Assembly: GCA_038205245.1 (NCBI GenBank)
Contig: JBBRCD010000002.1
Location: 113 to 64,112 of the forward strand
Length of the DNA: 64,000 nucleotides
From: Burkholderiales bacterium
GTDB taxonomy: Bacteria > Pseudomonadota > Gammaproteobacteria > Burkholderiales > CAIKXV01
Direction of reading: 5' to 3'
Below the pieces are notes generated by a model. The model saw nothing but the letters and a program-made list of their open reading frames with translations. It did no database searches and was not told the DNA's origin. Shown here in pieces: positions 20,097 to 33,832 of this stretch. The stretch's first letter is position 1; every line of letters starts with the position of its first letter. Position numbers and translations under genes: made by a program.

Positions 20097-21191
20097 CTAC
20101 CGGCCAAGCGCGCGTAACTGCTCGGCATAGGCACGCAGAAAGTCCCGCTGGCAGACGCGATCGATGCTGTCTGCCGACTCGCGCTCGAGTCTGGTGTAGG
20201 TTTCGACCAGCGCCTCCCAGGCATTGGCCCGCCGGTTCAGCGCCAGGGGACCAGACGATCTCGCCGCGGTCTTCTCGAAAATGTCCGGGTCGAAACGCCT
20301 GAGCATGCCCAGCACTGCAGCGCGCATGCCGGCGACCAGGGCCGCCTCATGCGCCTGCAGTTCATGCGCCGCGTCCTGCACCGCTTCTACCGGCAGCATC
20401 AGGTCGGGTCGCCGCCGGGCGGGATCGATCAGGTAGCGCACTGCTTCTGCCGGGTTGGATATCATCCTGAGCGGGTTGCGCTCATGCCCAGAGACCTTCG
20501 TCGAGTCGTTGGCCTGCAGGTCGCGCCTGGCCTCGCTACGGGCCAGCATCAGTTGCATCTGCGCCTCGACCAGTGCCTGCAGCACTGCGCCAGCCTGCTC
20601 GAGAAACTCATCGGCCAGGTCATCCGGAATCTGCAGATAGCCAAGATTGCTGCCACGCAGAAACGCAGCCACACCCCGCCTGGACGCGTCTGCCTGGGCG
20701 CGCCGCTTCGCTGGCAGGCTGGTCTGTTCATCCAAGGTGGAGTCGCCGACCGCGTTGACGAAGCCGGCTGCCAGGGCAGGTCCCTCGGCCAGCGCAGGCC
20801 GAGATGCCGGGGCAGGCCCTTCTGCCGGGGCAGGCCCATCCGCCAGCGCCGGTTCGGCGTTGCCCTCTGGCAGCGGCGCCGCTGCCTGCCCCACCATGTC
20901 GATTACCAGTTCGAACGGCGACATGGTAATGCGCGACCCATCGGCCACCGGCCGCGTCTGCCCGGTACGCATCACCTGTCCATCGACCAGCACCGGGTTG
21001 ACCCGCGAATGCACGGTGAGCTGCCAGCTGCCATCGACCCGCTCGAGGGTCGCATGCAGCCTGGAAATATGCCGGGCCTGGTCGTTGAGAACCACGGCTG
21101 ACTTCTCGTCCCGGCCGATGGTCAGCAGCGACGCGTTCGAGCGGACCTCGTTTGCCAGCGTGCCGGCGTCGTACACCTGGATCAACAGCAT
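20097..21191 (-). CDS. FHA-domain protein with TagH (T6SS Fha1/VasC)-like C-terminal domain
   Basis: N-terminal FHA: LLTIGRDEKSAVVLNDQARHISRLHATLERVDGSWQLTVHS..NPVLVDG. Ala/Pro/Gly linker. The C-terminus AFLRGSNLGYL...FLEQAGAVLQALVEAQMQLMLARSE...ERNPLRMI...AVRYLI...HELQAHEAALVAGMRAAVLGMLRRFDP...FLRAYAEQL follows the remembered TagH C-domain pattern. This has not been confirmed with an HMM. Confidence 0.75.
   Translation of the reverse strand: MLLIQVYDAGTLANEVRSNASLLTIGRDEKSAVVLNDQARHISRLHATLERVDGSWQLTVHSRVNPVLVDGQVMRTGQTRPVADGSRITMSPFELVIDMVGQAAAPLPEGNAEPALADGPAPAEGPAPASRPALAEGPALAAGFVNAVGDSTLDEQTSLPAKRRAQADASRRGVAAFLRGSNLGYLQIPDDLADEFLEQAGAVLQALVEAQMQLMLARSEARRDLQANDSTKVSGHERNPLRMISNPAEAVRYLIDPARRRPDLMLPVEAVQDAAHELQAHEAALVAGMRAAVLGMLRRFDPDIFEKTAARSSGPLALNRRANAWEALVETYTRLERESADSIDRVCQRDFLRAYAEQLRALGR
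20769..20840. repeat. 18-nt tandem repeat x4 (two near-perfect copies tgccggggcaggccc[t/a]tc) inside the FHA-protein linker
   Basis: Encodes the (A/P)EGPA(P/L) hexapeptide repeats in ...ADGPAPAEGPAPASRPALAEGPALAAG... Confidence 0.7.
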
Positions 21192-21393
21192 CGGTCGGGA
21201 CAGAAGCTCAGCGCCAATAATTTCATTTCTGGCCTTCGATCATTACCGTAAACTACGGGTTTATCAAGCGCTCCGATGCCGTTGGCTGCGTCGTTGGCAA
21301 TACAGTTGTCTGCGAAGCTGTTTGCGCAGTTTTTGTTTACGCTGATGATGCGCGCCAGCGCGTGGTCCAATCGCCTCTCGAGCCTGCAGATCC

Positions 21394-23583
21394 ATGAGTG
21401 CCGTTCCGCGCAAGTCCCTTGGCAGATTCGAGATCGTCCGCACGCTGGGCCGGGGCGCGATGGGCATCGTCTACGAAGGTCGTGATCCCCGTCTGAACCG
21501 TCGGGTGGCGATCAAGACGATCCTGCGCAGTGCCATTCTGGACGACGAGGAGGCCAAGCAGTATGCGGCCAGATTCGTGCGCGAAGCGCAGGCGGTCGCG
21601 AGACTGACCCACCCGAACATCGTCGGCGTCTATGACTTCGGCGACCAGGACGACACCACCTTCATCGTGATGGAGTTCATCGACGGAAAGGAACTGAAGT
21701 CGCATCTGGACACCGGGAAGCCGTTCGACTTCCCGACCACAGTGCGGGTGATGAACGAGCTGCTCGGTGGCCTGGGTTATGCCCACAAGCAGGGTGTGGT
21801 CCATCGCGACATCAAGCCGGCCAACATCATGCTCGACAGCGCCGGCCGGGTGAAGCTCACCGACTTCGGCGTCGCCCGCATCACCGAGTCGGCCGAGCGT
21901 ACCCAGGCGGGCACGATGGTCGGCACGCCGAGCTACATGTCGCCGGAGCAGATCCAGGGCCTGCCGGTGGACAACCGCACCGATCTGTTTGCCTGCGGCG
22001 TCATCCTGTACCAGATGCTCACTGGAGAGAAGCCGTTCACTGGCGCCGGGACGTGGACGATCTACAACCAGATCCTGCAGCATGAGCCGCCGCCGGTCAG
22101 CACGATCAATGCCGGCCTGCCGCCGGCGGTAGACCGGGTGGTCAATCGCGCGCTGGCGAAGGACAAGAACGATCGTTATCGCAGTGCGAGCGAATTCTCA
22201 TCGGCGCTGACGGCGCTGCTGATGGGCACGCCGGAAGGTGTGAGTACAGGTGAAGCCGACGAGGAGGCCACGCAGTTCATCCTCGCCTCCGATGCGCAGC
22301 GCATGGCCGACTCGGCGGCACAACGCCTTGCCGACACGTCCGGCGCGCGCACCGCACCAGGTGCCCAGAGTTCGATTCCGCCGGGTGGCGCCAGCGCACA
22401 GGATGTCGAGCTGGAGTTCTGGCGTGCGATCAAGGACAGCAACGATCCGGCCGACTATGAGCTTCATCTGCAGAAGTTTCCGACCGGCGTGTATGGCGAA
22501 CTGGCACGCCGGAAGGCCGATCGTCTGCGCGCGTCGGGCACTCAGGCCGAGCCGACCTACGCCGCGACTTCGCGCGCGCCCGCTGCAGGAACCGAGCCGA
22601 CAATCAACGCCGGACGCGGCGCTGCGGCGCCAGACCTCGCAAGATCGGCGCAGCCCACTGCGCCGCCACCGGCCCGGGTTGAACAGAGCACACCGCAGCC
22701 CACCCGATCGGCGCCCGAACCGGGCAGCAATGACGGTGCAGCGGCGGGCCTCCCGTTACCGCTGGTCGCCGGTGGCATCGGCGGCCTGATCGCGCTGGCG
22801 GTGGGTGGCTGGATGATCTTCGGCGCCGGGTCGGCAACGGCGCCGGTGCCACCGCCGCAGCCTGCGCCGGTGGCGGCCCCGAAGAGCGCGCCGGTGCCGG
22901 CAAAGGCAACCCCGGTCCCGCCGCCGCCAGCGGTCGAGCAACCCGTGCGTCCGAAAGAGAACGAGGACGCGTTGCGCAAGATGGACTCGGCGATGGACCG
23001 GGCCAATGCCGATGTCGCCGCCGACAAGGCCGCGCTCGCCAAGGCTGCGGCAGAACGTGCAGCTGCGGAGAAAGCCGCTGCACGGGCGATCATGGATCGC
23101 GCTGCTGTCGACAAGGCTGCGGGCAAGGCTGCGGCCGATCGGGCTGCGGCCGACAAGGCGGCGGCGGACAAGAGCGCGGTCAAGGCAGCCAGCGATCGGG
23201 CTGCGGCAGAGAAGGCCGCCGCCGAGCGCAATGCTGCTGAACGGACAGCCGCCGAGCGTGCCGCGACTGATCGGGCCGCTGCCGAGCGCGCGGCCGCGGA
23301 GAAGGCAGCTGCTGAGCAACGTGCCGCAGCCGAGAGGGCGGCGGTCGAGAAACTGGCGGCAGAAAAAGCGGCCGTTGCGAAGGCTGCCGCGGAAAAGGCA
23401 GCTGCCGAGAAGGTCGCCGCCGACCGCGCAGCCGCTGCCGAGAAAGCTGCCGCTGCCGAGAAAGCTGCAGCAGCGGAGAAAGCCGCCGCCGCCGAGCGCG
23501 CGGCTGCGGCGCAGCGCCAGGACGCGGCAGCGTCGGCCAAGGCGAACGACGCCGCCAAACGAGCCGGTGGCCGTCAGAACTGA
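21394..23583 (+). CDS. Transmembrane Hanks-type Ser/Thr protein kinase with Pro-rich and Ala-rich (TolA-like) extracytoplasmic tail
   Basis: GRGAMGIVY...VAIK...HRDIKPANIML...DFGVA...GTPSYMSPEQ. One predicted TM helix (LPLPLVAGGIGGLIALAVGGWMIFGA, about residues 452-477). The C-terminal roughly 210 aa are AAEKAAAERAA-type low complexity. Confidence 0.9.
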   Translation: MSAVPRKSLGRFEIVRTLGRGAMGIVYEGRDPRLNRRVAIKTILRSAILDDEEAKQYAARFVREAQAVARLTHPNIVGVYDFGDQDDTTFIVMEFIDGKELKSHLDTGKPFDFPTTVRVMNELLGGLGYAHKQGVVHRDIKPANIMLDSAGRVKLTDFGVARITESAERTQAGTMVGTPSYMSPEQIQGLPVDNRTDLFACGVILYQMLTGEKPFTGAGTWTIYNQILQHEPPPVSTINAGLPPAVDRVVNRALAKDKNDRYRSASEFSSALTALLMGTPEGVSTGEADEEATQFILASDAQRMADSAAQRLADTSGARTAPGAQSSIPPGGASAQDVELEFWRAIKDSNDPADYELHLQKFPTGVYGELARRKADRLRASGTQAEPTYAATSRAPAAGTEPTINAGRGAAAPDLARSAQPTAPPPARVEQSTPQPTRSAPEPGSNDGAAAGLPLPLVAGGIGGLIALAVGGWMIFGAGSATAPVPPPQPAPVAAPKSAPVPAKATPVPPPPAVEQPVRPKENEDALRKMDSAMDRANADVAADKAALAKAAAERAAAEKAAARAIMDRAAVDKAAGKAAADRAAADKAAADKSAVKAASDRAAAEKAAAERNAAERTAAERAATDRAAAERAAAEKAAAEQRAAAERAAVEKLAAEKAAVAKAAAEKAAAEKVAADRAAAAEKAAAAEKAAAAEKAAAAERAAAAQRQDAAASAKANDAAKRAGGRQN

Positions 23584-26500
23584 TCAGGGCTTCGGTTTAC
23601 GCTTGAACTCGTCCGGCAGCAGCACGCCGAGATCGAAGATCGAGAACTCTCGCCCCAGCGGGCCGAGATCCTGCGAATCGCGTAGCAGTTGCCGGCGCAA
23701 CACGCCGGTACCCGAGGTCAGGTCGATCTGCTCGCGCTGGCTGTTGCCCAGAGCCACATAGACGATGGACGCGCCCAGTTGGGCCTGCGACTCGGCGAGC
23801 GAAACGCCAAGCGAGACGGTGTTGCCGACACAGTACTCGTTGAGGCAGTTCACCCGCGTCGTCGTCGACGGCTGGAAGAAGGCGGTGCCGGTGGGAGACA
23901 CGACGGCGCCAAAGCCCAGGGTCACCGTGCTCGCGGAGCCACCGATCGCCAGGCGCTGAGTGGAAGTTCCTATGCTGCCGCTAGCGAGGACGCTTTCGAT
24001 CGCCGGGCTGCGATTGGGCAATGCCGACAGGTCGACCGCGGAGCGCGCTGGCGAGATCAGAAGCAGGCGCAGATCCGGGACGGTCCAGACCGTGCCCGGC
24101 GCCTGCGAGATACCGACCCCACCTCCGGCGAAGGTCGCAGTGACCAACCCGAGCGGCGCGTTGAGCGTACCCATCGCGATGCCGCCAACGCTGTCATGGA
24201 TGTCGAACCGGGTGCCAATGAACGAGGCTGCGCCGGACGATCCGGGATTGGCGAAGTCGTTGCCGTCGTTACGCAGGGTGATGGTCGATGCCGAGCTGAT
24301 CGTGGTGTTGCCGCTGACCCGCACCGCGCTGCCCGCAGTCTGCGACACCGCCCCCGCCGACTGCAGGTTGAGCGAGGTCGCCTGCAGATTGCTTAGAGTA
24401 GTCGCCACACTGTTGGCAATGGTCACCGACCCGGCGCTGGGCAGACTGATCACCCCGGGCAGCACATTGCCCGGGTTGGTCAGGGCCACATCGCCGGTCG
24501 TGTTCAAGGTCACGCTGCCCGGTCCGGTCAACGCAGCGCTCACACTGACGATGTCGCTGCGGTCCAGAACCAGCGCCGAGTTGTTGATCACCGTACCCGT
24601 GCCCAGCGTGCCACTGGTGCCACCGCCACCCACACGCAAGGTCCCGGCGTTGATGCGGGTCGTTCCACTGTAGCTATTGTTGCCGGTGAGGAGTGTCGTG
24701 CCTGACCCGGACTGCACCAGCGCGCCGCTGCCGCTGATCGCATTGCCCACGGTGACGGTGTCACCCCGGTTGATCGCCAGAGTCGCGTTGTTGACTACTG
24801 CACCCGCGCCGAGTGTACCGGCGGCCCCGCCATCGCCGACCTGCAGCGTGCCCGCGCTGATCGTCGTCGTACCGGCATGGGTGTTGGTGCCGGTCAGCGT
24901 CGTCGTCCCGCTGCCGGCCTGCACCAGAGTGCCGGTCCCGCTTATCGAATTGGCCAGCGTTACCGCATCGCCGCGGTTGATCGTCAGCGACCCGTTATTG
25001 GTCACCGCACCGGAACCCAGGCTGCCGCTCGCGCCACCGTCCCCGGCCTGCAACCCGCCAGCCGCGATCACGGTGCCGCCTGTATAGCTGTTGTTGCCGG
25101 TCAGCGTGGTCGTGCCGGTACCCGACTGGGTCAGGCTGCCGCCGCCACTGATCGCGCCGGTCAAGGTCACCGCATCGCTTCGGTTCACCACCAGCGCTGC
25201 ATTGTTCAGCACCGTGCCGCTGCCCAGGCTTCCGGCAGTACCGCCGTTGCCGACCTGCAGCGTGCCCGAAGTGATCGTGGTTGGACCGGTATAAGCGTTG
25301 TTCCCGGTTAGCGTGGTCGTGCCGGCACCCGCCTGAATCAGCCCGCCACTGCCGCTGATCGGGTTGTTCAGCGTCAGCGCATCATTGCGATTGATCGCGA
25401 GGGTGCCACTGTTGGCGACCGTGCCGGTGCCGAGGGTTCCTGCAGCGCCACCATTACCGACCTGCAGCGTACCGGCACTGATCACCGTCGGCCCGCGGTA
25501 GGAATTGTTGCCGGTGAGTGCAGTCGTACCGGTGCCGGCCTGCGCCAACCCGCCGTCACCGCTGATCGCGTTGGCAACGACCACGGCGTCGCTGCGGTCG
25601 AAGGCGATCGTGGCACCACTGGCGACGCTCACGCCAGCAGCGCCGAGCGTGCCACTGGTGCCCCCGTCTCCGACGCGCAGCGTTCCGGCAGTCACCGTCG
25701 TCGCGCCTGCGTAATTGTTGGCACCGGTGAGTGTGGTGACACCACTGCCGGCCTGGGTGATACCCCCGGAACCGCCGAGCGCCGCCGACAGGGTGACCGC
25801 ATCGCTGCGGTTGATCGCGAGTGTCCCGTTGTTGGTCAGTGCACCCGTGCCAAGCGTTCCGCTGGTGCCGCCAGTGCCCACCTGCAGCGTGCCGGCGGCA
25901 ATGGTCGTGGTGCCGGAGTAGTTGTTGTTGCCCGCCAGCGATGTGGTCCCGGCCCCGGACTGGGTCAGCGAACCGGTGCCGGAGATGTCGCCAGCGAGGG
26001 TAACCGCATTGCTGCGATCGACGATCAGACTGCCGTTGTTGGTGATCGCGCCGCCACCGAGCGCTCCAGTCGTGCCGCCCGACCCGACCCGCAGCGTCCC
26101 TGCGCTGATCGTCGTCCCGCCTCCGTAGTCGTTGTTGGCAGTCAGGGTGGTGGTTCCACTGCCCGCCTGGGTCAGGCTGCCGCTGCCGGTTATGGTGTTG
26201 GTCAGGGTGACGGCATCGCTGCGATCGATCACCAGTTCGCCATTGTCGAGGACGGCCCCGGCACCAAGACTGCCGGTGGTACCGCCGCTGCCCACGCGCA
26301 AGACGCCGGCGCTGATCGTCGTGGTCCCGTAACTGTTGTTGACGGTGAGCGTCGTCGTCCCGCTGCCGGCCTGGGTCAGGGAACCGGTGCCGCTGATCGT
26401 GTTGGTGATGCTCAACGCATTGCTGCGGTTGACCACCAGCGCCGCGTTGTTCGTTACCGAGCCACTGCCGAGCGAACCGGTGGTGCCGCCAGCGCCGAGT

Positions 26501-29500
26501 TGAAGCGTGCCAGCGCTGATGGTGGTCGGGCCGGTGTAGTTGTTGCTGCCGGTCAGGATGGTCGTACCGCTGCCCGACTGGGTCAGGCTGCCAGTGCCAC
26601 CTATATCACCCGCCACGGTCACCGCGTCGCTGCGATTGACCACCAGCGCCGAATTGTTGGTCACCGCGCCGCCGCCGAGGCTGCCGCTGGTGCCACCGGC
26701 GCCGATCTGCAAGGTGCCCGCCGCGATGGTCGTGGTGCCGCTGAAGGTGCTGTTGCCAGTCAGCGTGGTCGTACCGGAGCCCACCTGATTCAGAACGCCG
26801 GTGCCGCTGATCGGGTTGTTCACGGTCAGCGCGTTGCTGCGATTGATCGCCAGCGTCGCATTGTTGATCACGCCCCCCCCGTTGCCCAAGGTGCCGATGG
26901 TGACGCCGTTGCCGACCTGCAGGGTGCCCGCGCTGATCGTGGTGGTGCCGGTGTAGCTGTTCGCCCCGGTCAGCGTGGTGATGCCGATACCGGCCTGGGT
27001 CAGACCGCCACTGCCGCCGATGCCCTGGGCAATGGTGACTGCATTGCTGCGATCGACGATCAGCGTACCGCTTACCGCAATCGCACCACTGCCCAGGCTG
27101 CCAGTGGCGCCGCCGGCACCGAGCGAAAGCGCGCTGCCTGTGGCCACTGTCGTCGACCCGGCATAGGTACTGTTGCCAGTCAGTGCCAGCGTGCCGGTGC
27201 CAGTGCGGTTGAACGTGGACGTTGTCGCGCCGACGATCTGGCCTGCGAAGGTGCCGCCGCTGCCGCCGACGTTCAGCGTCCCGGCGTTCAGCTGCACGGT
27301 CCCTGCGCCGCCCAGCCCCCCGATCGTCTGTGTGCCCGACCCGATGTCCAGCGTCGCACCGCTGGCGATCGAAGCCGCGCCAGTGCCATCGCCGAACCGG
27401 CCGGCGCCGGCGACCGTCAAGGTTCCACTGTTGACCGTGGTCGACCCCGAGTAGGTGTTCGCCGCAGTCAGCGTGAGGGCCGAGCCGCCCGACTGCGCGA
27501 TGCCGCCGCTGCCGGAGATCAGGTTGGCCACCGTGATCGCGTTGCTTCGATTGAAGGCAAGCGTACCGTTGGACACGACCGCGCCGGAACCGAGCGTGCC
27601 CGTGATACCGCCGTTTCCGACCTGCAGGGTCCCGGCATCGATGCTCGTCGTACCGCCATAGAAGTTTCCTCCAGTCAGTACGGTTGTTCCGCTGCCTGCC
27701 TGGGTCAGCGCCCCGCTGCCGAAGATCGCGTTGCCGATGGTCAGCGTGTTGCTCCGGTTGATCGCCAGCGTGGCGTTGTTGAAGACGGTACCACTGCCGA
27801 GTGTGCCGGTCGTGCCGCCATCGCCGAGTTGCAGTGTCCCAGCGCTGATCGTCGTCGTGCCAAGGTAGCCGTTGCTGCCGGTCAGTGTCGTCGTGCCGGT
27901 CCCGGCTTGGGTCAGCGAACCGAGCCCGTTGATCGCACCGCTGACAGTCACCGCATCGCTGCGATCGATCACCAGCGACGTGTTGTTGGTCACCGGCCCG
28001 GTACCCACGGAGCCGCTGGCACCACCACTGCCCACCCGCAGCGACCCGGCAAGGATCACCGTCGCGCCGGCATAGTCGTTGTTGCCGGTCAGCGTCGTCG
28101 TGCCGCTTCCCGTCTGGCGCACGCTGCCGCCGCCGGTGATCGTATTGCCGAGGGTCAACGCGTCGCTGCGGTTGACCACCAGCGCCGCATTGTTGGTCAC
28201 TGTGCCGGTGCCCAGGGTGCCGATCGTGCCCCCGTTGCCGACCTGCAGCGCACCCGCGTTGATCACGGTATCGCCATAGCTGTTGTTGCCGATAAGCGTG
28301 GTCGTGCCGGCACCGGCCTGGGTCAGACTCCCGCTGCCGCTCACCGCGTTGAACAACGTAACCGAGTCGCTGCGATTGATCGCGAGCGTGCCGTTGTTGG
28401 TCACCGGCCCGATGCCAAGGGTGCCGATCGTGCCACCGTTGCCGACCTGCAGCGTGCCGTCGTTTATCGTCGTGGGGCCGATGTAACTGTTTGTGGCCGT
28501 CAGCGTCGTAGTGCCGCTGCCCGCCTGGGTCAGCGCACCGGCTCCAGTGATGGGCTGGGCAATCGTGATCGCGTTGCTGCGATTCACGATCAGCGTGCCG
28601 GTGACCGAGATCGACCCGATGCCCCCCAGGCTGCCGGTGGTGCCGCCTGCACCGAGCGAAAGCGCGCTGCCGGCCGCCACCGTGGTCGATCCGAAGAACG
28701 CGCTGTTTGCAGTCAGCGCAAGGGTGCCACTGCCCGTTCGATTGAAGGTCGACAACGGAGAGCCGACGAGCTGCCCATCGAACGTCCCGCCAGTGCCGCC
28801 GACATTCAGCGTACCGTTGTTCAACTGTACCGCCCCGCCTCCGCTCAGGCCGCCGAACGTGTGAAAGCCTGAACCAATATCCAGCGTGGCGCCAGTGACG
28901 ACCGTGGCAGCGCCGGTGCCGATGCCGAACCGGCCTGCGCCGGATACGGTCAGCGTCCCGCTGTTGACTGTGGTGGGTCCGAAATAGATGTTCGCGGCAG
29001 TGAGCGTCACGGTCGAACTGCCGGACTGGGCGATACCGCCAGTGCCGGAGATCGCGTTGGCCACCGTGATTGCATTGCTGCGGTTGAACGCGAGTGTCCC
29101 CGGTGCGTCCACCGTCACCGACCCGCCGCCGAGCAAACCGCTGGTGCCGCCATTGCCGACCTGCAGCGTACCGGCGTCTATCGTCGTCGCCCCCAGGTGA
29201 AGATTGGCTCCGGTCAGCACAGTCGTGCCAGTACCGATCTGGTCGAGACCGCCGATGCCGATGATACGATTGCCGATGATCAGCGTATCGCTGCGGTTGA
29301 CGACCAGCGTTCCACTGTTCAAAACGTCGCCCGCCACCGCGCCCAGAGAACCGGCCGTTCCACCGCTGCCGATCTGCAGCGTTCTCCCCGGGTCGATCGT
29401 GGTGTCGCCGGAATAGCTGTTGCTACCGGTGAGCGTGGCCGTACCTGCGCCTGACTGCCTCAATGCGCCGGTACCACCGATAGCGTTGGCCACGGTCACT

Positions 29501-31842
29501 GCATTGCTGCGGTCGATCTGCAGCGTGCCGCTGTTGTTCACCACGCCGGCGCCCAGCGTGCCGGTGGCGCCGCCGCCGCCGATGTTGAGCGTGCCCGCGC
29601 TGATCGTCGTCGCGCCGAGATAGCTGTTGTTGCCAGTCAACGTGGTCGTGCCACCGCCAGACTGGATCAGGCTGCCGCTGCCGCTGATCGCGTTGCCCAC
29701 GGTCAGTGCATTGCTGCGGTCGATCTGCAGCGTCGCATTGTTGGTCACCGCGCCACTGCCCAGCGTACCGGCCGTGCTGCCGGCACCGACGCGCAGCGTC
29801 CCGCCGTTGATGGTCGTGGTGCCGATATAGCTATTGGCCTGATCGAGCGTCAACGTGCCAGTCCCGCCAGCAACCAGGTTGAGGTTTCCGGTCAGTGCCG
29901 CGGTCTGTGAGCCGGCGCCGGAATGCGCCAGGGTGATCGTCCCGCCTGCCCCGACATTGATCGCGCCCACGGCCAGCGTCGTGGCGCCGGTGACGGCAAC
30001 CGCTGCCGCGCCGGGGTTGGTGGTCGACAGCGTCCTGAGCACAACCGCGCCGCCCCCACCGTCGACCGCCAGCGTGCCACTGCCGGCGTCGATCGACTGG
30101 CCGACAGCCTGGCTGACCCCGGCAGTGCCGGCGGTGATCGACACCCCGGCGCCGATCACGTTCTGGTTGAGTTCGACCTTGCCGCCCGCGCCAGCAGTCA
30201 TCGCAATCGAACCGCCGAAACTCAGCGCGCCACCGACCGTGATGTCGTTGCCCGAATTCAGCACAAGCCCGCCGGTGCCGGTGTTGGTGATCGCGGCATT
30301 GATCGCGATGCTGCCACCGCCCGGTGCCGAATCCAGCGTCAGCGAGTTCGCGGTGTTGTAGGCAGACGCCGGCGTCGCCGCAACGGTGATGCTGCCCGTG
30401 CCCGGTCCGGTAGCGCTGGACGTCTGCACCACCACGTTGCTGCCCACCAGCGCCGCAAGGATCGTGGCCCATTGCAACGTGCCGCCGGTGCCCGCCGGAT
30501 CCGGCAGGAACGGATCCAACGCCGGCCCCGTACCCAGCACATCAGCGGTAGTCGCATTGCTGATGGTGATATCGAGTGGATCGAGCAGCAATCGACCGGT
30601 CAGGCCGAACGGCGCACTCAGATCGGCTGTGCCGCGGAAGTCGAGAAACCTGCGCCCGGAAACTTCGGCGAATCCGCCGCGCCCGCCTTGCGCGCCGCCG
30701 CGTGCGGTCACATGACCAAGGAATCGTGTCGACTGGTCCGACCAGACGATCACCGTACCGCCATCACCGTCGCGGCGGGCGCTGGCATCGATGATCACAT
30801 CGGGCGCGACATAGGTCGCCTGGGCATTCTGCTCCGGACCCAGGCCCTGAAAGTTGCCACCGACCAGGACCGTGCCGCCGCCGGCGCTGCCGCTGGCATC
30901 GATCCGCGCCGCACCGGTGAGTCCGACCCGCTCGCCCAGGATGCGGATCTCGCCACCGCGCAAGCCTGCAGTGGCGCCGAGGGCCTCGACCGTGCCGGAC
31001 ACATTCACCGTTCCCCGCTCGCCACCGGAGATGAACACCTCGCCGTTGCGCTCGACCACCGAGTTGGCCCGTACCACCCCGGACAGGTTGATCACGCTGG
31101 CGGTTGCCTCGCCCAGGGCCCGGGCGCTCAGCACCACCCGCCCACCCTCGGCGGTAATCGCGCCGGCGTTGTCGATCGAGGCGCGCAGCGCTGCGGCATC
31201 GACGTTCAGTCGCAACAGGCCGTCGCCGCGAAGATCGACGCTGACCCGATCGCCAGCGCCCAGCGCCACCGTACCGCCATTGGCCTGGATCGTTCCACGG
31301 TTGATTATCGAGGGTCCGATCAGCGCCACATAGCCGCCGTCGGCCGCGCGCAGACGGCCGTCGTTGATGATCGCGCCGCCAGCGCCTGCAACTGCAAACG
31401 TGTAGCGCCCGGCCATGAAGTCGGCATTGCCGAGCAACAGCGTCGAACCGACGAAGCCGCCGACATCGATCTGCGCATCGCGCCCGAACAGCACGCCGTT
31501 CGGATTGATCAGGAAGACCTGCCCGTTCGCCGACAGCCGGCCGAAGATCTCGGATGCACCGCTTCCGATCACCCGGTTCAGCACTACTGAACTCGCACTT
31601 GGCTGCACGAAGTTCACCGCATTGCCGGCCGCAATGCCGAAGCTCTGCCAGTCGATCGCAGCGCGCGGCGTCGACTGCTGGATGGTCAGCGTGTTGGGTG
31701 CAGAAGCGGAGATCGTGGCAGCGCCAGCGGTGACCTGCCCGCCGGTCGGCAAGCCGGCAGCCAGCACCGGCGTGCTGCCCAGCGCCGACAGGGCCAGCAA
31801 CACCGCTGCGTGCAGTGCAGACCTCCGTCTGAGTTGCCGCAT
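23584..31842 (-). CDS. Two-partner-secretion exoprotein (TpsA; filamentous-haemagglutinin-family N-terminal domain plus PATR-like beta-strand repeats)
   Basis: ORF 23584..31914 (TTG) trimmed to ATG 31842 (GGGGAAACGGGA upstream). Signal peptide MRQLRRRSALHAAVLLALSALGSTPVLAAG. TPS domain ...NFVQPSASSVVLNRVIGSGASEIFGRLSANGQVFLINPNGVLFG..., then GGFAEVSG. This is followed by about two dozen units of G.G.LTQAGSGTTTLTG.N.Y.G.TTI.AGTLQVG.GGT.G.LG.G.V.NN..L..NRSDA.T....I.G. Confidence 0.9.
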   Translation of the reverse strand: MRQLRRRSALHAAVLLALSALGSTPVLAAGLPTGGQVTAGAATISASAPNTLTIQQSTPRAAIDWQSFGIAAGNAVNFVQPSASSVVLNRVIGSGASEIFGRLSANGQVFLINPNGVLFGRDAQIDVGGFVGSTLLLGNADFMAGRYTFAVAGAGGAIINDGRLRAADGGYVALIGPSIINRGTIQANGGTVALGAGDRVSVDLRGDGLLRLNVDAAALRASIDNAGAITAEGGRVVLSARALGEATASVINLSGVVRANSVVERNGEVFISGGERGTVNVSGTVEALGATAGLRGGEIRILGERVGLTGAARIDASGSAGGGTVLVGGNFQGLGPEQNAQATYVAPDVIIDASARRDGDGGTVIVWSDQSTRFLGHVTARGGAQGGRGGFAEVSGRRFLDFRGTADLSAPFGLTGRLLLDPLDITISNATTADVLGTGPALDPFLPDPAGTGGTLQWATILAALVGSNVVVQTSSATGPGTGSITVAATPASAYNTANSLTLDSAPGGGSIAINAAITNTGTGGLVLNSGNDITVGGALSFGGSIAMTAGAGGKVELNQNVIGAGVSITAGTAGVSQAVGQSIDAGSGTLAVDGGGGAVVLRTLSTTNPGAAAVAVTGATTLAVGAINVGAGGTITLAHSGAGSQTAALTGNLNLVAGGTGTLTLDQANSYIGTTTINGGTLRVGAGSTAGTLGSGAVTNNATLQIDRSNALTVGNAISGSGSLIQSGGGTTTLTGNNSYLGATTISAGTLNIGGGGATGTLGAGVVNNSGTLQIDRSNAVTVANAIGGTGALRQSGAGTATLTGSNSYSGDTTIDPGRTLQIGSGGTAGSLGAVAGDVLNSGTLVVNRSDTLIIGNRIIGIGGLDQIGTGTTVLTGANLHLGATTIDAGTLQVGNGGTSGLLGGGSVTVDAPGTLAFNRSNAITVANAISGTGGIAQSGSSTVTLTAANIYFGPTTVNSGTLTVSGAGRFGIGTGAATVVTGATLDIGSGFHTFGGLSGGGAVQLNNGTLNVGGTGGTFDGQLVGSPLSTFNRTGSGTLALTANSAFFGSTTVAAGSALSLGAGGTTGSLGGIGSISVTGTLIVNRSNAITIAQPITGAGALTQAGSGTTTLTATNSYIGPTTINDGTLQVGNGGTIGTLGIGPVTNNGTLAINRSDSVTLFNAVSGSGSLTQAGAGTTTLIGNNSYGDTVINAGALQVGNGGTIGTLGTGTVTNNAALVVNRSDALTLGNTITGGGSVRQTGSGTTTLTGNNDYAGATVILAGSLRVGSGGASGSVGTGPVTNNTSLVIDRSDAVTVSGAINGLGSLTQAGTGTTTLTGSNGYLGTTTISAGTLQLGDGGTTGTLGSGTVFNNATLAINRSNTLTIGNAIFGSGALTQAGSGTTVLTGGNFYGGTTSIDAGTLQVGNGGITGTLGSGAVVSNGTLAFNRSNAITVANLISGSGGIAQSGGSALTLTAANTYSGSTTVNSGTLTVAGAGRFGDGTGAASIASGATLDIGSGTQTIGGLGGAGTVQLNAGTLNVGGSGGTFAGQIVGATTSTFNRTGTGTLALTGNSTYAGSTTVATGSALSLGAGGATGSLGSGAIAVSGTLIVDRSNAVTIAQGIGGSGGLTQAGIGITTLTGANSYTGTTTISAGTLQVGNGVTIGTLGNGGGVINNATLAINRSNALTVNNPISGTGVLNQVGSGTTTLTGNSTFSGTTTIAAGTLQIGAGGTSGSLGGGAVTNNSALVVNRSDAVTVAGDIGGTGSLTQSGSGTTILTGSNNYTGPTTISAGTLQLGAGGTTGSLGSGSVTNNAALVVNRSNALSITNTISGTGSLTQAGSGTTTLTVNNSYGTTTISAGVLRVGSGGTTGSLGAGAVLDNGELVIDRSDAVTLTNTITGSGSLTQAGSGTTTLTANNDYGGGTTISAGTLRVGSGGTTGALGGGAITNNGSLIVDRSNAVTLAGDISGTGSLTQSGAGTTSLAGNNNYSGTTTIAAGTLQVGTGGTSGTLGTGALTNNGTLAINRSDAVTLSAALGGSGGITQAGSGVTTLTGANNYAGATTVTAGTLRVGDGGTSGTLGAAGVSVASGATIAFDRSDAVVVANAISGDGGLAQAGTGTTALTGNNSYRGPTVISAGTLQVGNGGAAGTLGTGTVANSGTLAINRNDALTLNNPISGSGGLIQAGAGTTTLTGNNAYTGPTTITSGTLQVGNGGTAGSLGSGTVLNNAALVVNRSDAVTLTGAISGGGSLTQSGTGTTTLTGNNSYTGGTVIAAGGLQAGDGGASGSLGSGAVTNNGSLTINRGDAVTLANSISGTGTLVQAGSGTTTLTGTNTHAGTTTISAGTLQVGDGGAAGTLGAGAVVNNATLAINRGDTVTVGNAISGSGALVQSGSGTTLLTGNNSYSGTTRINAGTLRVGGGGTSGTLGTGTVINNSALVLDRSDIVSVSAALTGPGSVTLNTTGDVALTNPGNVLPGVISLPSAGSVTIANSVATTLSNLQATSLNLQSAGAVSQTAGSAVRVSGNTTISSASTITLRNDGNDFANPGSSGAASFIGTRFDIHDSVGGIAMGTLNAPLGLVTATFAGGGVGISQAPGTVWTVPDLRLLLISPARSAVDLSALPNRSPAIESVLASGSIGTSTQRLAIGGSASTVTLGFGAVVSPTGTAFFQPSTTTRVNCLNEYCVGNTVSLGVSLAESQAQLGASIVYVALGNSQREQIDLTSGTGVLRRQLLRDSQDLGPLGREFSIFDLGVLLPDEFKRKPKP

Positions 31843-31867
31843 TCCCGTTTCCCCTGGTGCCGATGAA

Positions 31868-31915
31868 CCCACAAACCAACGAACCAACAAGCCAACGAGC
31901 CAACAAACCAACAAC
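31868..31915. repeat. Octamer tandem repeat x6 (cccacaaa ccaacgaa ccaacaag ccaacgag ccaacaaa ccaacaac) in the tpsB-tpsA spacer
   Basis: CCAAC recurs at 31876, 31884, 31892, 31900 and 31908, an exact 8-nt period. Lies 26-73 nt upstream of the tpsA ATG. On the mRNA strand it reads (NNNGUUGG)n. Confidence 0.85.
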
Positions 31916-31972
31916 TGACTCGTCCCGGCTATCGGCGCGGGTTCAACGCGCCCGCACCCGTTGGAAACAACC

Positions 31973-33832
31973 CTACATCAAATCCTTGATCAGTTGCACC
32001 CAAACTCTTGGCGATCCGCGCGATTCTCCAGCCACCACGCTGTCACCGCCGGTACGCCAGGCCAGATCGACCCGCATCAGGTGCGAGCCCGGTCGGGACA
32101 CCCGCAATCCGAGACCCGCGCCCTGCAGTTTGTTGCTGGACGGCACCGGCACCGACTGGCCGCGCGAGCAGGACGCCGCATCATGACAGACGCTGCCTTC
32201 GGCATAGTCGTAGAACAGCGCAAGCGTCGACACCCCCAACCGGTCTGGCCGCAACTGGGCGACCTGCGGCGCGTAGCGCAATTCGCCCTGGAACAACGTG
32301 CCTTCGTCGACGATCAGCTGACCGGTGGGGAAAGCGCGCACGCCGGCCGGACCACCCAGACTGAGGCGCTCGGCCGAGGTGAGATTCTTGCTGGCGATCT
32401 GACCGAGCACCAGCATGGACAGCGACACCGGCCCGCCCCATTCGGCAATCGACTGGACGGTCTGCAGGTCATAGTTGACCTTGGTGAAGCTGCCGTTGGT
32501 GCCCGGTCCGAAGCGGTCGTTGGCCAGTTCAGCCGGGCTGCGGATGTCGACATCTCCCAGCGTCAGCAGCGCCGAACCGAGGGAGATCGACCCATTCTGC
32601 TGGCGGAAGTCGCCGAACACCCCGACCTTGCCCGACCTCACCCGCTTGTCGTTCAGCGTCGGCGGCTGCGTCGCGTCCACCGTGTCGGTAAGCAATTTGT
32701 AGTCGCCAACGATCTGGCCAAACAGATTGGCGTTGCGCGACCGGATGACCGGGTGGGTTGCGAACACCGAATAGCTGTCCGCCTGCCCCTTGGCCTGCAG
32801 ACTGGCGAACGAGCCGCCGAGTTCGTAGTTGACCCGGGTGTAGCCAGCGCCGATCCTGGTTCCGTACGGTCCGACCGGCAGAATGTAGCTCAACCGGCCG
32901 AGTTCGGTCAGCCGGTCTTCCTGCACCAGGAGGCGCAGGCCGAGCTGATCGCCCACGCCCAGCGGGTTGTTGAAGCGCAGGTTGACCCCGGCGCGCAGTC
33001 CGCCCGTGGCTTCACTGCCGCCGTTGTCCAGATCGACCGCAGCGCGCAGCCGCAGCGGCGCATCTTCGACCCGCACCACCAGATCACCCTCGCCAAGGTT
33101 ACGTCCCGGTCTGAGTTCCGAGTTGACTGCGGTCACACCGTTCAGGTCCTGAATCAACAGCAGGCGCCGCTCGAGGTCGTCTTCCCGGATCGGCACGCCC
33201 GCCTGCAGCGTGCCGAGAATGCGGTCGACGACCACCGGTTTCACCTGCGACAGCCCGGCCGTCTCGACTCTGACCCGGCCCAGCCGCCCCTCGACGATGG
33301 CGATCTCGACCACACCGTCGCGCACCTGCTGCTCCGGCAGATAGGCCACGACCGCCACATAGCCCGCCTTGCGATAGACCTCTTCGACCGCGCTCAACAG
33401 ATCGCGCAGGTTGGAGGCGTCCAGCGGCTTGCCAACGAAACCACGCACGGCTGCACCCAGCACATCGGCGCTCTGGCGCGAGTTTCCAGTAAAGCGGAAT
33501 CTGCCCGGCGCCACGCCGGAGACGCCTGACGACGGACGATCCGGCAGAGTCACCGTGGGTGCCGGCGGCGCCACACGCAGGGGTACGCCACGTGGCTCGC
33601 GGGTCTGCTCGAGCAGGGTTCCGGCGTCTGGTCTGGACGCTGGTAACTGCTGCGCATTAGCCGATGAAAACAAGGGCACAGGGAGCAACACTAATACTGC
33701 CATTGCTGCCAGACGAGCTGGCAGACTGGCCGGCAGATGAGCCCGGCAAATGGCCCGTCCGAGCAACCCCGGCACCCCCATGCCGATTGGCGCTCCGGCT
33801 ACCTCGATTTCGCTTTTCCCTATATTTTTCAT
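31973..33832 (-). CDS. Two-partner-secretion outer-membrane transporter (TpsB; ShlB/FhaC/HecB family)
   Basis: 619 aa. Signal-like MAVLVLLPVPLFSSANAQ. POTRA-type FRFTGNS...LSAVEEVYRKAGYVAVVAYLPEQQVRDGVVEIAIVEGRLGRVRVE. C-terminal beta-barrel rich in alternating aromatic residues. The start may instead be ATG 33781 (GGAG upstream). Confidence 0.9.
   Translation of the reverse strand: MKNIGKSEIEVAGAPIGMGVPGLLGRAICRAHLPASLPARLAAMAVLVLLPVPLFSSANAQQLPASRPDAGTLLEQTREPRGVPLRVAPPAPTVTLPDRPSSGVSGVAPGRFRFTGNSRQSADVLGAAVRGFVGKPLDASNLRDLLSAVEEVYRKAGYVAVVAYLPEQQVRDGVVEIAIVEGRLGRVRVETAGLSQVKPVVVDRILGTLQAGVPIREDDLERRLLLIQDLNGVTAVNSELRPGRNLGEGDLVVRVEDAPLRLRAAVDLDNGGSEATGGLRAGVNLRFNNPLGVGDQLGLRLLVQEDRLTELGRLSYILPVGPYGTRIGAGYTRVNYELGGSFASLQAKGQADSYSVFATHPVIRSRNANLFGQIVGDYKLLTDTVDATQPPTLNDKRVRSGKVGVFGDFRQQNGSISLGSALLTLGDVDIRSPAELANDRFGPGTNGSFTKVNYDLQTVQSIAEWGGPVSLSMLVLGQIASKNLTSAERLSLGGPAGVRAFPTGQLIVDEGTLFQGELRYAPQVAQLRPDRLGVSTLALFYDYAEGSVCHDAASCSRGQSVPVPSSNKLQGAGLGLRVSRPGSHLMRVDLAWRTGGDSVVAGESRGSPRVWVQLIKDLM

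What the first reader, a model, noticed from the sequence alone, without database searches (positions are those of the whole stretch)
20097..33832. Candidate new coupling: FHA/Ser-Thr-kinase switch joined to a two-partner secretion (TpsB-TpsA) locus
The accessory block reads FHA(-) | kinase(+) | tpsA(-) tpsB(-). It is flanked by housekeeping-type genes (an ABC importer on the left, ppsA on the right). The kinase gene runs directly into the 3' end of tpsA with no intergenic base. Its extracytoplasmic part is a long helical low-complexity tail rather than a ligand-binding fold, so it could span the periplasm towards an outer-membrane partner such as TpsB. I know of no described TPS system gated by a Hanks kinase and a TagH-like FHA protein. 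The functional link is inference from adjacency only.
Basis: inference. Interest (0 to 1): 0.7.

Follow-up and report, generated by a model that had tools for sequence, protein, structure and literature searches.

The report
Orphan T6SS switch beside adhesin exporter
The four genes are real, but the kinase and FHA protein are the on/off switch of a type VI secretion system whose structural genes are missing at this site; a large adhesin-like two-partner secretion pair sits next to such switches in several unrelated Burkholderiales loci, a link no paper found here describes.

Summary
The locus holds a TagH-type FHA protein (20097-21191, -), a Hanks kinase (21394-23583, +), TpsA (23584-31914, -) and TpsB (31973-33832, -). 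It lies between an ABC importer and ppsA. The kinase and tpsA stop codons abut.

The FHA/kinase pair is not a generic switch. It is the TagH/PpkA-type threonine-phosphorylation module of type VI secretion. In a syntenic relative (L083/L170) the same ppsA-tpsB-tpsA-kinase-FHA block runs straight into tssK-tssL-tssM-tagF-tssA-tssB-tssC. In the window and in L081 those core genes are absent, and no T6SS gene occurs anywhere in the 64 kb.

FHA, kinase and TPS genes are still intact and under purifying selection (dN/dS 0.2-0.35 at dS about 0.6-1). TPS pairs also sit beside T6SS kinase/FHA/PP2C genes in two further, rearranged lineages: L174, and Caballeronia grimmiae with Paraburkholderia sp. PGU19. 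Seven other TPS relatives lack the link, as do 77 loci with the same kinase motif.

Best reading: a reduced T6SS island in which the TPS pair acts on the envelope side of the kinase-FHA switch. Whether the genome has a T6SS elsewhere is unknown. I found no published description of this link. Interest is moderate.

The parts
20097..21191 (-). TagH-type FHA protein, 364 aa: FHA domain, a short Pro/Ala linker, then the T6SS_FHA_C domain
   Evidence: Pfam and NCBIfam hits. The pThr-binding residues G26, R27, S43, H46 and N65 are invariant across 5 homologues. dN/dS against L081 is 0.43 for the FHA domain and 0.31 for the C-terminal domain. The linker is much shorter than in the T6SS-adjacent homologues of L083, L174 and L085.
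21192..21393 (.). 202-bp divergent intergenic region between the FHA and kinase genes (presumed promoters)
   Evidence: Read from the sequence. The same divergent arrangement occurs in L081 (231 bp) and L083 (98 bp). Promoters were not tested.
21394..23583 (+). PpkA-like Hanks Ser/Thr kinase, 729 aa. In order: kinase domain 12-263; cytoplasmic 'ELEFWRAIKDS...' motif at about 337-377; TM 457-475; Pro-rich 481-520; single helix 521-728; conserved C-terminus AKRAGGRQN
   Evidence: Domain calls and sequence. The orthologues in L081, L083 and L169 share the whole architecture and an identical C-terminal nonapeptide. The ELEFW motif marks T6SS-linked kinases: 47 of 77 loci against 1 of 80. dN/dS is 0.20 for the kinase domain and 0.09 for the helix tail.
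23584..31914 (-). TpsA exoprotein (probable start ATG 31842, about 2752 aa): signal peptide, TPS domain with NPNG, 25 PATR repeats, DUF5649 and a conserved C-terminal region
   Evidence: The C-terminal 500 aa are 72% (L081), 64% (L169) and 56% (L083) identical. No variable toxin tip and no room for an immunity gene.
31866..31914 (.). Octanucleotide repeat tract (about 6 units) in the tpsB-tpsA spacer, 24-72 nt upstream of the likely tpsA ATG
   Evidence: Found by Tandem Repeats Finder. The 98%-identical strain L090 has 24 bp (3 units) fewer.
31973..33832 (-). TpsB outer-membrane transporter (POTRA_2 + ShlB/FhaC barrel). The database copy starts 17 codons downstream and is 602 aa
   Evidence: Orthologues are 70-75% identical in L081's contig, L169 and L170.

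Best explanation
This locus is a reduced type VI secretion island. The FHA protein and the kinase are the TagH/PpkA-type threonine-phosphorylation switch of a T6SS. The PATR-type tpsBA pair belongs to the same island.

In the closest T6SS-bearing relative, the identical block ppsA-tpsB-tpsA-kinase-FHA continues into tssK-tssL-tssM-tagF-tssA-tssB-tssC. In the window's lineage and in L081 those core genes are gone from the site, either deleted or moved. The remaining unit tpsBA + kinase + tagH is still maintained by selection.

Proposed mechanism:
1. The kinase sits in the inner membrane with its catalytic domain in the cytoplasm. This follows from the domain order and from the PhoA-tested topology of A. 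citrulli PpkA.
2. Its roughly 31-nm single helix, ending in the invariant AKRAGGRQN, crosses the periplasm towards the outer membrane (helix modelled; reach inferred).
3. There it reads the state of the TpsB/TpsA exporter or of the envelope. This would parallel the way TagQRST or TssW act on PpkA (inferred).
4. The activated kinase creates a phosphothreonine that the intact FHA domain of TagH binds (established for the family; the binding residues are conserved here).
5. In T6SS-bearing relatives the output is T6SS assembly. In this genome the output is either a T6SS encoded elsewhere or something unknown.

I put the T6SS origin of the pair and the 'reduced island' reading at about 0.85. I put a real functional tie between the TPS pair and the switch at about 0.45.
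For: **Family identity.**
- TagH call above the curated cut-off, plus T6SS_FHA_C.
- The closest FHA homologues sit in T6SS clusters: L083, L087, L085.
- The kinase's 45-aa ELEFW motif is found next to TssM/TagF/TagH in 47 of 77 metagenome loci, against 1 of 80 loci with generic Hanks kinases.

**Same chromosomal site with and without the core genes.**
- L170 has motA-motB-x-GT1-FGE-pentapeptide-DUF4126-ppsR-ppsA-tpsB-tpsA-kinase-FHA. L083 is the same contig and continues with tssKLM-tagF-tssABC. PpsA is 90.5% identical to the window's.
- The window and L081 have the ABC importer 93 and 79 bp after FHA.
- There is no T6SS core gene or PP2C anywhere in the 64 kb.

**Maintenance.** All ORFs are intact and the catalytic and pThr-binding residues are conserved. 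dN/dS against L081 is 0.35 for FHA, 0.23 for the kinase and 0.34 for TpsA, at dS about 0.6-1.0; housekeeping genes give about 0.10.

**Recurrence in other gene orders.**
- L174: DUF4123-PAAR ... tagH - 2 lipoproteins - tpsB - tpsA (PATR + DUF5649) - Sel1 - kinase.
- Paraburkholderia sp. PGU19: kinase | CHAT-tpsB-tpsA | PP2C | tssABC ... clpV-PAAR-vgrG.
- Caballeronia grimmiae: STK-tagF-tssMLKJ | CHAT-tpsB-tpsA-tssA ... tssBC ... PP2C-tagH-tssH.

**Precedent.** In A. citrulli the outer-membrane protein TssW binds the periplasmic part of PpkA (PMC12607579).

**Helix.** 208 residues, mostly pLDDT >90. The tail is conserved: dN/dS 0.09 and an identical last 9 residues in 4 lineages.
Against: - The four loci of the window's clade are orthologous by descent. 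Their neighbours are equally conserved, so they count as one observation.
- The link is sporadic. None of 77 ELEFW-kinase loci has a TPS pair. Seven TPS relatives have no kinase or T6SS genes nearby: Comamonas, Ralstonia, B. stagnalis, P. caledonica, Azospirillum, Roseateles and Shinella.
- The TPS-linked kinases do not share a periplasmic module: a helix tail here, DUF4384 in PGU19. The TpsA types also differ (PATR/DUF5649 against MBG plus a CHAT partner). This argues against one common physical interface.
- In C. grimmiae the TPS pair is about 8-10 kb from the kinase and from tagH, so the association may be with the T6SS cluster in general rather than with the switch.
- TagH domains evolve about twice as fast in the T6SS-less pair as in the T6SS-adjacent pair (dN/dS 0.43/0.31 against 0.16/0.17). 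This fits partial loss of function.
- No phosphatase (PppA) or TagF is present in the window.
- Whether the source genome has a T6SS elsewhere could not be determined.
Confidence: 0.5

Rival explanations
1. Neighbours without a functional tie. The kinase and FHA protein serve a T6SS encoded elsewhere in the genome. The TPS pair is an independent adhesin system that happens to lie next to the place where a T6SS island inserted or decayed.
For: - Synteny of the whole region is conserved by descent, so adjacency within the clade carries no extra weight.
- None of 77 T6SS-type ELEFW kinase loci has a TPS pair.
- Seven of 9 sampled TPS relatives outside the clade have no kinase or T6SS genes.
- The tpsA and kinase genes are convergent, so they are not co-transcribed.
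- The periplasmic parts of the kinases differ between the TPS-linked lineages.
Against: - Three independent gene orders place a TPS pair inside or at the edge of T6SS clusters, directly next to kinase, FHA or PP2C genes. By my rough estimate (not computed with a tool), chance adjacency to a T6SS is a few percent per gene.
- In the window and L081 exactly these genes survived loss of the core genes.
- No close TssK was found on the 866-kb L081 contig or on the 98-kb source contig. This is weak evidence: only the top 120 hits and single contigs were covered.
Confidence: 0.3
2. A T6SS-independent device in which the Hanks kinase and the TagH-like FHA protein gate secretion of TpsA through TpsB.
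For: - The trio persists, intact and under purifying selection, without T6SS core genes at the locus in at least two lineages.
- The kinase tail is long enough to reach the outer membrane and its C-terminus is invariant.
- The FHA linker is shortened in the T6SS-less loci. This could reflect loss of a T6SS scaffold role while another role is kept.
Against: - TagH is cytoplasmic, with no hydrophobic segment, and it keeps the T6SS-specific C-terminal domain.
- As far as I know, TpsA export needs only Sec and TpsB, and no cytoplasmic gate is known.
- In L083 the same proteins head a T6SS operon.
- No evidence points to this direction of control.
- Absence of a T6SS from the genome is not shown.
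Confidence: 0.12
3. A decaying remnant. After the T6SS core was deleted, the FHA and kinase genes became functionless leftovers on their way to pseudogenes.
For: - TagH dN/dS is about twice that of the T6SS-adjacent pair.
- The linker is shortened.
- GC3 is lower than in the flanking genes (0.77 against 0.83-0.85).
- There is no PppA or TagF partner in the window.
Against: - At dS about 0.6-1.0 between the window and L081, both genes are still full-length, with no stops or frameshifts. dN/dS is 0.2-0.35, and 0.09-0.20 in the kinase domain and tail.
- Catalytic and pThr-binding residues are invariant.
Confidence: 0.05

Closest known systems
TssW-PpkA-Fha axis of the Acidovorax citrulli T6SS (Pei et al., mBio 2025, PMC12607579)
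   Same: Also Burkholderiales. It has an inner-membrane Hanks kinase with a periplasmic C-terminus, a TagH/Fha partner, and an outer-membrane protein encoded beside them that binds the periplasmic part of the kinase and controls where and whether the T6SS assembles. In L174 the tpsBA pair occupies the slot between fha and the kinase where tssW sits.
   Different: TssW is a single outer-membrane protein, not a TpsB/TpsA pair. Here there are no T6SS core genes at the locus, and the kinase's periplasmic part is one long Ala-rich helix. No interaction has been tested.
TagQRST-PpkA-PppA-Fha1 threonine phosphorylation pathway of the Pseudomonas aeruginosa H1-T6SS
   Same: The logic is the same: envelope-side sensors feed a transmembrane Hanks kinase, which produces a phosphothreonine read by an FHA protein (as summarised in PMC12607579, and from my own knowledge).
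   Different: P. aeruginosa PpkA has a periplasmic vWA-type domain (own knowledge). No TagQRST, PppA or TagF is present in the window. The pair is orphaned from the T6SS.
Agrobacterium tumefaciens PpkA-TssL-Fha and TagF control (PMC3953482, PMC5995506)
   Same: A kinase plus an FHA protein act as a post-translational T6SS switch. The L083-type relative also has tagF in the operon.
   Different: There the target is TssL, and everything is encoded in the T6SS cluster. No TPS component is involved.
Classical two-partner secretion systems (Bordetella FhaB/FhaC, ShlA/ShlB, CdiA/CdiB)
   Same: A TpsB with POTRA_2 and a ShlB barrel, and a TpsA with a Sec signal and a TPS domain carrying NPNG.
   Different: The passenger is built of PATR (autotransporter-type) repeats plus DUF5649. 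There is no variable toxin tip and no immunity gene. None of the classical systems is linked to a Hanks kinase or FHA pair (own knowledge; no paper found).
TolA domain II (a periplasm-spanning Ala/Lys/Glu-rich helix)
   Same: A long, single, Ala/Lys/Glu/Arg-rich helix following an N-terminal membrane anchor, long enough to bridge the two membranes.
   Different: There was no TolA Pfam hit and there is no globular C-terminal domain, only a conserved nonapeptide. This is a resemblance in composition and geometry, not homology.

Membership tests
TagH / Fha (T6SS-associated FHA protein) | N-terminal FHA domain with phosphothreonine-binding residues | tested here: met
   PF00498 at residues 24-90. 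G26, R27, S43, H46 and N65 are invariant in alignment A2.
TagH / Fha (T6SS-associated FHA protein) | C-terminal T6SS_FHA_C domain and a family HMM score above the curated cut-off | tested here: met
   PF20232 with E 5e-35. TIGR03354 scores 170.7 bits against a cut-off of 120.25.
TagH / Fha (T6SS-associated FHA protein) | Encoded in a T6SS gene cluster | tested here: not met
   The 64-kb window has no T6SS core gene. The feature is met by the homologues in L083, L087, L085 and L174.
TagH / Fha (T6SS-associated FHA protein) | Phosphorylated by PpkA and required for T6SS assembly | not testable with these tools
   Needs phosphoproteomics and genetics.
PpkA-type T6SS kinase | Hanks-type kinase domain with intact catalytic motifs | tested here: met
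   PF00069 with E 2e-57. VAIK, HRD, DFG and SPE motifs are present.
PpkA-type T6SS kinase | Single-pass membrane protein with a periplasmic C-terminal part | tested here: met
   One hydrophobic segment at 457-475, followed by 250 aa. The topology is inferred by analogy with the PhoA-tested A. citrulli PpkA.
PpkA-type T6SS kinase | Genetic linkage to T6SS genes | tested here: inconclusive
   Not linked in the window. The orthologue in L083 is divergent from the tagH-tssK... operon. Kinases with the same motif are T6SS-linked in 47 of 77 loci.
PpkA-type T6SS kinase | Periplasmic vWA-like sensor domain, as in P. aeruginosa PpkA | tested here: not met
   No domain hit. AF2 gives a single 208-residue helix.
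Two-partner secretion (T5bSS) | TpsB with POTRA domains and a ShlB/FhaC-type barrel | tested here: met
   PF08479 at 111-182 and PF03865 at 247-543.
Two-partner secretion (T5bSS) | TpsA with a signal peptide and a TPS domain carrying NPNG, encoded next to TpsB | tested here: met
   PF05860 at 55-309, TIGR01901, and NPNG at 137. Signal peptide after M25. There is a 58-130 bp gap to tpsB.
Contact-dependent inhibition (CdiBAI) | Variable C-terminal toxin after a pretoxin motif, plus a downstream immunity gene | tested here: not met
   The C-terminal 300-500 aa are conserved at 56-72% across lineages. There is no toxin domain or PDB hit. The kinase gene abuts the tpsA stop codon, so there is no room for an immunity ORF.
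Complete T6SS locus | Core genes tssA-M, hcp, vgrG and clpV present | tested here: not met
   tblastn with TssA/B/C/K/L/M, TagF, ClpV, VgrG, PAAR, DUF4123 and PP2C found no hit at E<=0.01 in the window. Pfam map of the window.

The most novel reading that the evidence does not exclude
A two-partner secretion pair (outer-membrane TpsB plus a surface PATR filament, TpsA) acts as the trans-envelope input of a PpkA-TagH phosphorylation switch. For example, it could report surface contact or exporter occupancy to the kinase's periplasm-spanning helix. This three-part contact-sensing unit would be modular enough to persist and work on its own after the T6SS it once controlled has been lost.
Probability: 0.2. 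Interest if true: 0.8.

Novelty: new variant of a known kind. Interest (0 to 1): 0.55.

Why it matters
How T6SS kinases of the PpkA type receive their signal is known in only a few species: TagQRST in P. aeruginosa, RtkS in Serratia (own knowledge) and TssW in Acidovorax.

A TPS exporter and filament recurring next to the switch in several Burkholderiales would add a new kind of envelope partner. It would also suggest a route by which surface contact could be coupled to firing.

The orphan case seen here has the switch and TPS retained and the machine gone. It offers a natural experiment on whether the switch has a life outside T6SS. Culturable strains with the embedded arrangement, Caballeronia grimmiae Lep1A1 and Paraburkholderia sp. 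PGU19, make the question directly testable.

If the tie is not functional, the locus is simply a T6SS remnant beside an adhesin and is of local interest only.

Tried and rejected
- **Exact-sequence look-ups** of the window's kinase, PpsA and the 100%-identical FHA protein P0001 failed, so the source contig could not be extended and the organism not named. Cluster look-ups gave no names.
- **Metagenome scan with the kinase's non-catalytic part.** It found only near-identical strains plus the short ELEFW motif. That turned out to be useful as a T6SS marker, but it gave no further orthologues.
- **L035 and L071,** two loci with a kinase near a TPS pair among 80 generic kinase loci. Two of 80 is what I would roughly expect by chance (my estimate, not computed). 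L035 is a FecR/response-regulator/PP2C context. L071 has a frameshifted clpV, a kinase without a TM segment and a non-PATR TpsA. I did not count either as support.
- **CDI-toxin reading of TpsA:** rejected because the C-terminus is conserved and there is no immunity gene.
- **TolA homology of the tail:** no Pfam hit, so it is a resemblance only.
- **PDB sequence searches** with the TpsA C-terminus and the FHA protein gave nothing meaningful.
- **TssK search,** meant to detect a T6SS elsewhere on the 866-kb L081 contig or the 98-kb source contig by matching contig length. None appeared among the top 120 hits. This cannot exclude a T6SS on other contigs or one of a distant type.
- **Alignment of the FHA/ABC-importer junction** between the window and L081. 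It is too diverged to show whether the deletion was a single event.
- **The zero-base kinase/tpsA junction** is not conserved (173 and 51 bp in relatives), so I give it no functional weight.

Full report
**1. The observation.**
ORF listing and profile searches confirm every element at the stated coordinates.

- The gene at 20097-21191 (-) encodes a 364-aa protein with an FHA domain (24-90) and the T6SS_FHA_C domain (186-358). It passes NCBI's TagH model TIGR03354 (170.7 bits, cut-off 120.25).
- The gene at 21394-23583 (+) encodes a 729-aa Hanks kinase (Pkinase 12-263, E 2e-57) with all catalytic motifs.
- It has one hydrophobic segment at 457-475, then a Pro-rich stretch and a 194-aa tail that is 52% Ala.
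- AlphaFold2 on residues 440-729 gives a single uninterrupted helix for residues 521-728, mostly pLDDT >90. At 1.5 Å per residue that is about 31 nm.
- The gene at 23584-31914 (-) is a TpsA with a TPS domain, NPNG at 137, 25 PATR repeats and DUF5649. Its likely start is the ATG at 31842, which gives a signal peptide.
- The gene at 31973-33832 (-) is a TpsB with POTRA_2 and ShlB domains.
- The kinase stop codon and the tpsA stop codon abut (TGA|TCA).
- The flanks are an NMT1_2/ABC importer and ppsA.

**2. The rest of the window.**
I mapped the whole 64 kb (synteny with L081).

- Left of the locus: a chemotaxis cluster, then a block syntenic with L081's ftsB-eno-kdsA-pyrG (not scanned directly), PEPCK and the ABC importer.
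- Right of the locus: ppsA, ppsR, DUF4126, a pentapeptide protein, FGE-sulfatase, GT1, motB, motA, lpxA, fabZ, skp, bamA, rseP, dxr, cdsA, uppS, pyrH, rpsB, map and glnD.
- There is no T6SS core gene, no PP2C phosphatase and no TagF. tblastn with 12 T6SS proteins from relatives gave no hit at E<=0.01.
- The four genes have slightly lower GC3 (0.77-0.81) than their neighbours (0.83-0.85).

**3. What the FHA/kinase pair is.**
The nearest FHA homologues were placed in their contigs.

- P0004 (49% identical) lies in L081, a JGI contig of 866 kb. The layout is TpsA (2870 aa), then the kinase (770 aa, -), then FHA, then the same ABC importer, PEPCK, pyrG, kdsA and eno as in the window. Housekeeping DNA is 79-85% identical.
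- P0003 (52%) lies in L083/L084. The layout is TpsB - TpsA (2289 aa) - kinase (-) - FHA (+) - TssK - TssL - TssM - TagF - TssA - TssB - TssC.
- L087 has FHA-tssKLM-tagF-tssAB, with the contig ending just upstream of FHA.
- L085 has clpV-vgrG ... PP2C-DUF4123-PAAR-FHA-kinase.

The kinases of the window, L081 and L083 are clear orthologues. They share the kinase domain, a cytoplasmic 'ELEFWRSIKDS..D....L...FP.G.Y.ELARRK' motif, one TM segment, a Pro-rich stretch, a 'VRPKE..ALRK.D' motif, AAEKAAA-type repeats and an identical C-terminus AKRAGGRQN.

A metagenome scan seeded on the non-catalytic part found three near-identical strains (L089-L091, 98% nt identity) and 77 loci that share only the ELEFW motif.

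- 47 of those 77 loci carry TssM, TagF and/or TagH next to the kinase.
- Only 1 of 80 loci found with generic kinase patterns does so.

The pair is therefore the TagH/PpkA-type threonine-phosphorylation module of type VI secretion.

**4. Same site, with and without the machine.**
TpsB homologues gave two more orthologous loci.

- L170 is the same contig as L083. It shows motA-motB-x-GT1-FGE-pentapeptide-DUF4126-ppsR-ppsA-tpsB-tpsA-kinase-FHA, which is the window's right flank gene for gene. PpsA is 90.5% identical.
- L169 (TpsB 72% identical) has the same flank, a 3145-aa TpsA, and then a convergent gene ending ...AEPAKRAGGRQN*, which is the kinase.

So four lineages share one chromosomal site. 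In one of them FHA heads a T6SS operon. In two (the window and L081) the ABC importer follows FHA after 93 and 79 bp.

FHA and kinase are T6SS components by family, and FHA is operonic with tssK in L083. The economical reading is therefore loss or relocation of the core genes in the window/L081 lineage. The junction is too diverged to show a single event.

**5. Are the leftovers alive?**
Between the window and L081 (dS about 0.6-1.0) all four genes are full-length.

| Gene or domain | dN/dS, window vs L081 |
|---|---|
| FHA protein (whole) | 0.35 |
| Kinase (whole) | 0.23 |
| Kinase domain | 0.20 |
| Kinase helix tail | 0.09 |
| TpsA | 0.34 |
| Housekeeping neighbours | about 0.10 |

- The pThr-binding residues of the FHA domain are invariant.
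- The TagH domains do evolve about twice as fast as in the T6SS-adjacent pair L083/L087 (0.43/0.31 against 0.16/0.17).
- The linker is much shorter than in the T6SS-adjacent homologues of L083, L174 and L085.

The module is therefore maintained, perhaps with part of its former role relaxed. A search with L083's TssK found no close homologue on a contig of 866,489 or 98,144 bp among the top 120 hits. That is weak evidence and leaves open a T6SS elsewhere in the genome.

**6. Is the TPS pair tied to the switch?**
Within the clade the adjacency is no better conserved than the housekeeping synteny, so it counts as one observation. Outside the clade I examined every TPS relative I could get context for.

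Linked:
- L174 (TpsB 38%, TPS domain 50% identical, also PATR + DUF5649). The order is DUF4123-PAAR ... tagH (550 aa) - two small lipoproteins - tpsB - tpsA - a periplasmic Sel1 protein - a kinase whose N-terminus is 56-64% identical to the window's. All genes from tagH to the kinase are on one strand.
- Paraburkholderia sp. PGU19 chromid (L176). The order is kinase (DUF4384) | CHAT-tpsB-tpsA | PP2C | tssA-tssB-tssC ... clpV-PAAR-vgrG.
- Caballeronia grimmiae p1 (L178). The order is STK-tagF-tssM-tssL-tssK-tssJ | CHAT-tpsB-tpsA-tssA ... tssB-tssC ... PP2C-tagH-tssH, with tpsA ending 11 bp before tssA.

Not linked:
- Comamonas antarctica
- Ralstonia solanacearum
- B. stagnalis and P. caledonica
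- Azospirillum oryzae, Roseateles sp. and Shinella sp.

Counting lineages, 2 of 9 outside the clade place a TPS pair in or at a T6SS cluster beside its phosphorylation genes, and the clade itself adds a third. By my rough estimate (not computed with a tool) a random gene would be so placed a few percent of the time, so this is more than chance would give. It is still a minority arrangement, and none of the 77 ELEFW-kinase loci has a TPS pair.

The kinases' periplasmic parts and the TpsA passengers also differ between the linked lineages. This weakens the case for one shared physical interface and leaves open that the association is with T6SS clusters in general.

**7. Mechanism.**
Some steps rest on evidence gathered here.
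- Family identities and intact catalytic and binding residues.
- A kinase with one TM segment and a long helical extracytoplasmic tail with an invariant tip.
- T6SS linkage of the orthologue.

Other steps are inferred.
- The tail spans the periplasm.
- Its tip contacts TpsB, TpsA or another outer-membrane element.
- This contact controls kinase activity.
- TagH reads the resulting phosphothreonine.
- In relatives the output is T6SS assembly.

The closest precedent is TssW of Acidovorax citrulli. It is an outer-membrane protein encoded between ppkA and fha that binds PpkA's periplasmic domain and positions the T6SS (PMC12607579). TagQRST of P. aeruginosa follows the same logic.

TagH is cytoplasmic and keeps its T6SS-specific domain. 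To my knowledge TPS export needs no cytoplasmic gate.

TpsA is not a CDI toxin. Its C-terminus is conserved (56-72%), it has no toxin domain, and there is no room for an immunity gene.

**8. Literature and novelty.**
Full-text searches found no paper linking two-partner secretion with a Hanks kinase/FHA pair or placing TPS genes in T6SS clusters. The library does not cover subscription-only papers.

I class the finding as a new variant of a known kind. The known kind is the T6SS threonine-phosphorylation switch with an envelope-side accessory. The variant has a TPS pair as the associated component and, here, a switch orphaned from the machine.

**9. Verdict.**
- Observation: confirmed.
- Interpretation: partly supported.
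- Organism: probably an uncultured betaproteobacterium of the Burkholderiales type, inferred from the best-hit names.
- Interest: 0.55.

Noticed in passing
window 31866-31914: An octanucleotide tract (AACCAACA-like, about 6 units) lies 24-72 nt upstream of the probable tpsA start codon. The 98%-identical strain L090 has exactly 3 units (24 bp) fewer. It may be a slipped-strand repeat that varies TpsA expression.
   Followed up: partly
window 22402-22524 (kinase residues about 337-377); L092-L168: A 45-aa cytoplasmic motif, 'ELEFWRSIKDSxDPxDxxxYLxxFPxGxYxxLARxK', lies between the kinase domain and the TM segment. It has no Pfam hit. It occurs in 189 metagenome stretches. In the 77 loci fetched, it sits next to TssM/TagF/TagH in 47, against 1 of 80 loci with generic Hanks kinases. 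It looks like an undescribed signature of T6SS-linked kinases.
   Followed up: partly
L178 17491-27713 (Caballeronia grimmiae p1, NZ_CP084273.1); L176 17674-25960 (Paraburkholderia sp. PGU19): A CHAT/TPR protein, TpsB and TpsA are embedded in the middle of a complete T6SS cluster in cultured strains. In Caballeronia they lie between tssJ and tssA. In PGU19 they lie between the kinase and PP2C genes. No paper was found.
   Followed up: partly
L174 8978-9304 and 9438-9770: Two paralogous lipoproteins of about 108 aa, each with a lipobox and a 'GHEALHC' motif, lie between tagH and tpsB. Their function is unknown.
   Followed up: no
L088 6058-16744: Another orphan arrangement: a TagH-like FHA protein plus PP2C, a separate ORF with only T6SS_FHA_C, and a kinase with sCache/HAMP domains. 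There are no T6SS core genes within 20 kb. Orphan TagH modules may be more common than assumed.
   Followed up: no
window 20097-21191 compared with L081, L083, L087: The TagH linker between the FHA and C-terminal domains is cut down to about 50-80 aa in the two T6SS-less loci, against about 260 aa in the T6SS-adjacent homologues of L083, L174 and L085. Domain dN/dS is about twice as high in the T6SS-less pair. Short-linker TagH proteins also occur next to TssM/TagF in other loci, so the meaning is unclear.
   Followed up: partly
L071 74-2183: In an alphaproteobacterial MAG, a clpV (tssH) gene split over two frames lies upstream of a caspase/PG-binding protein, a Tll0287-HAMP protein, a TM-less Hanks kinase and a tpsB-tpsA pair. 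The split is probably an assembly error or a pseudogene. This may be a further T6SS-kinase-TPS neighbourhood, but it was not counted as evidence.
   Followed up: partly
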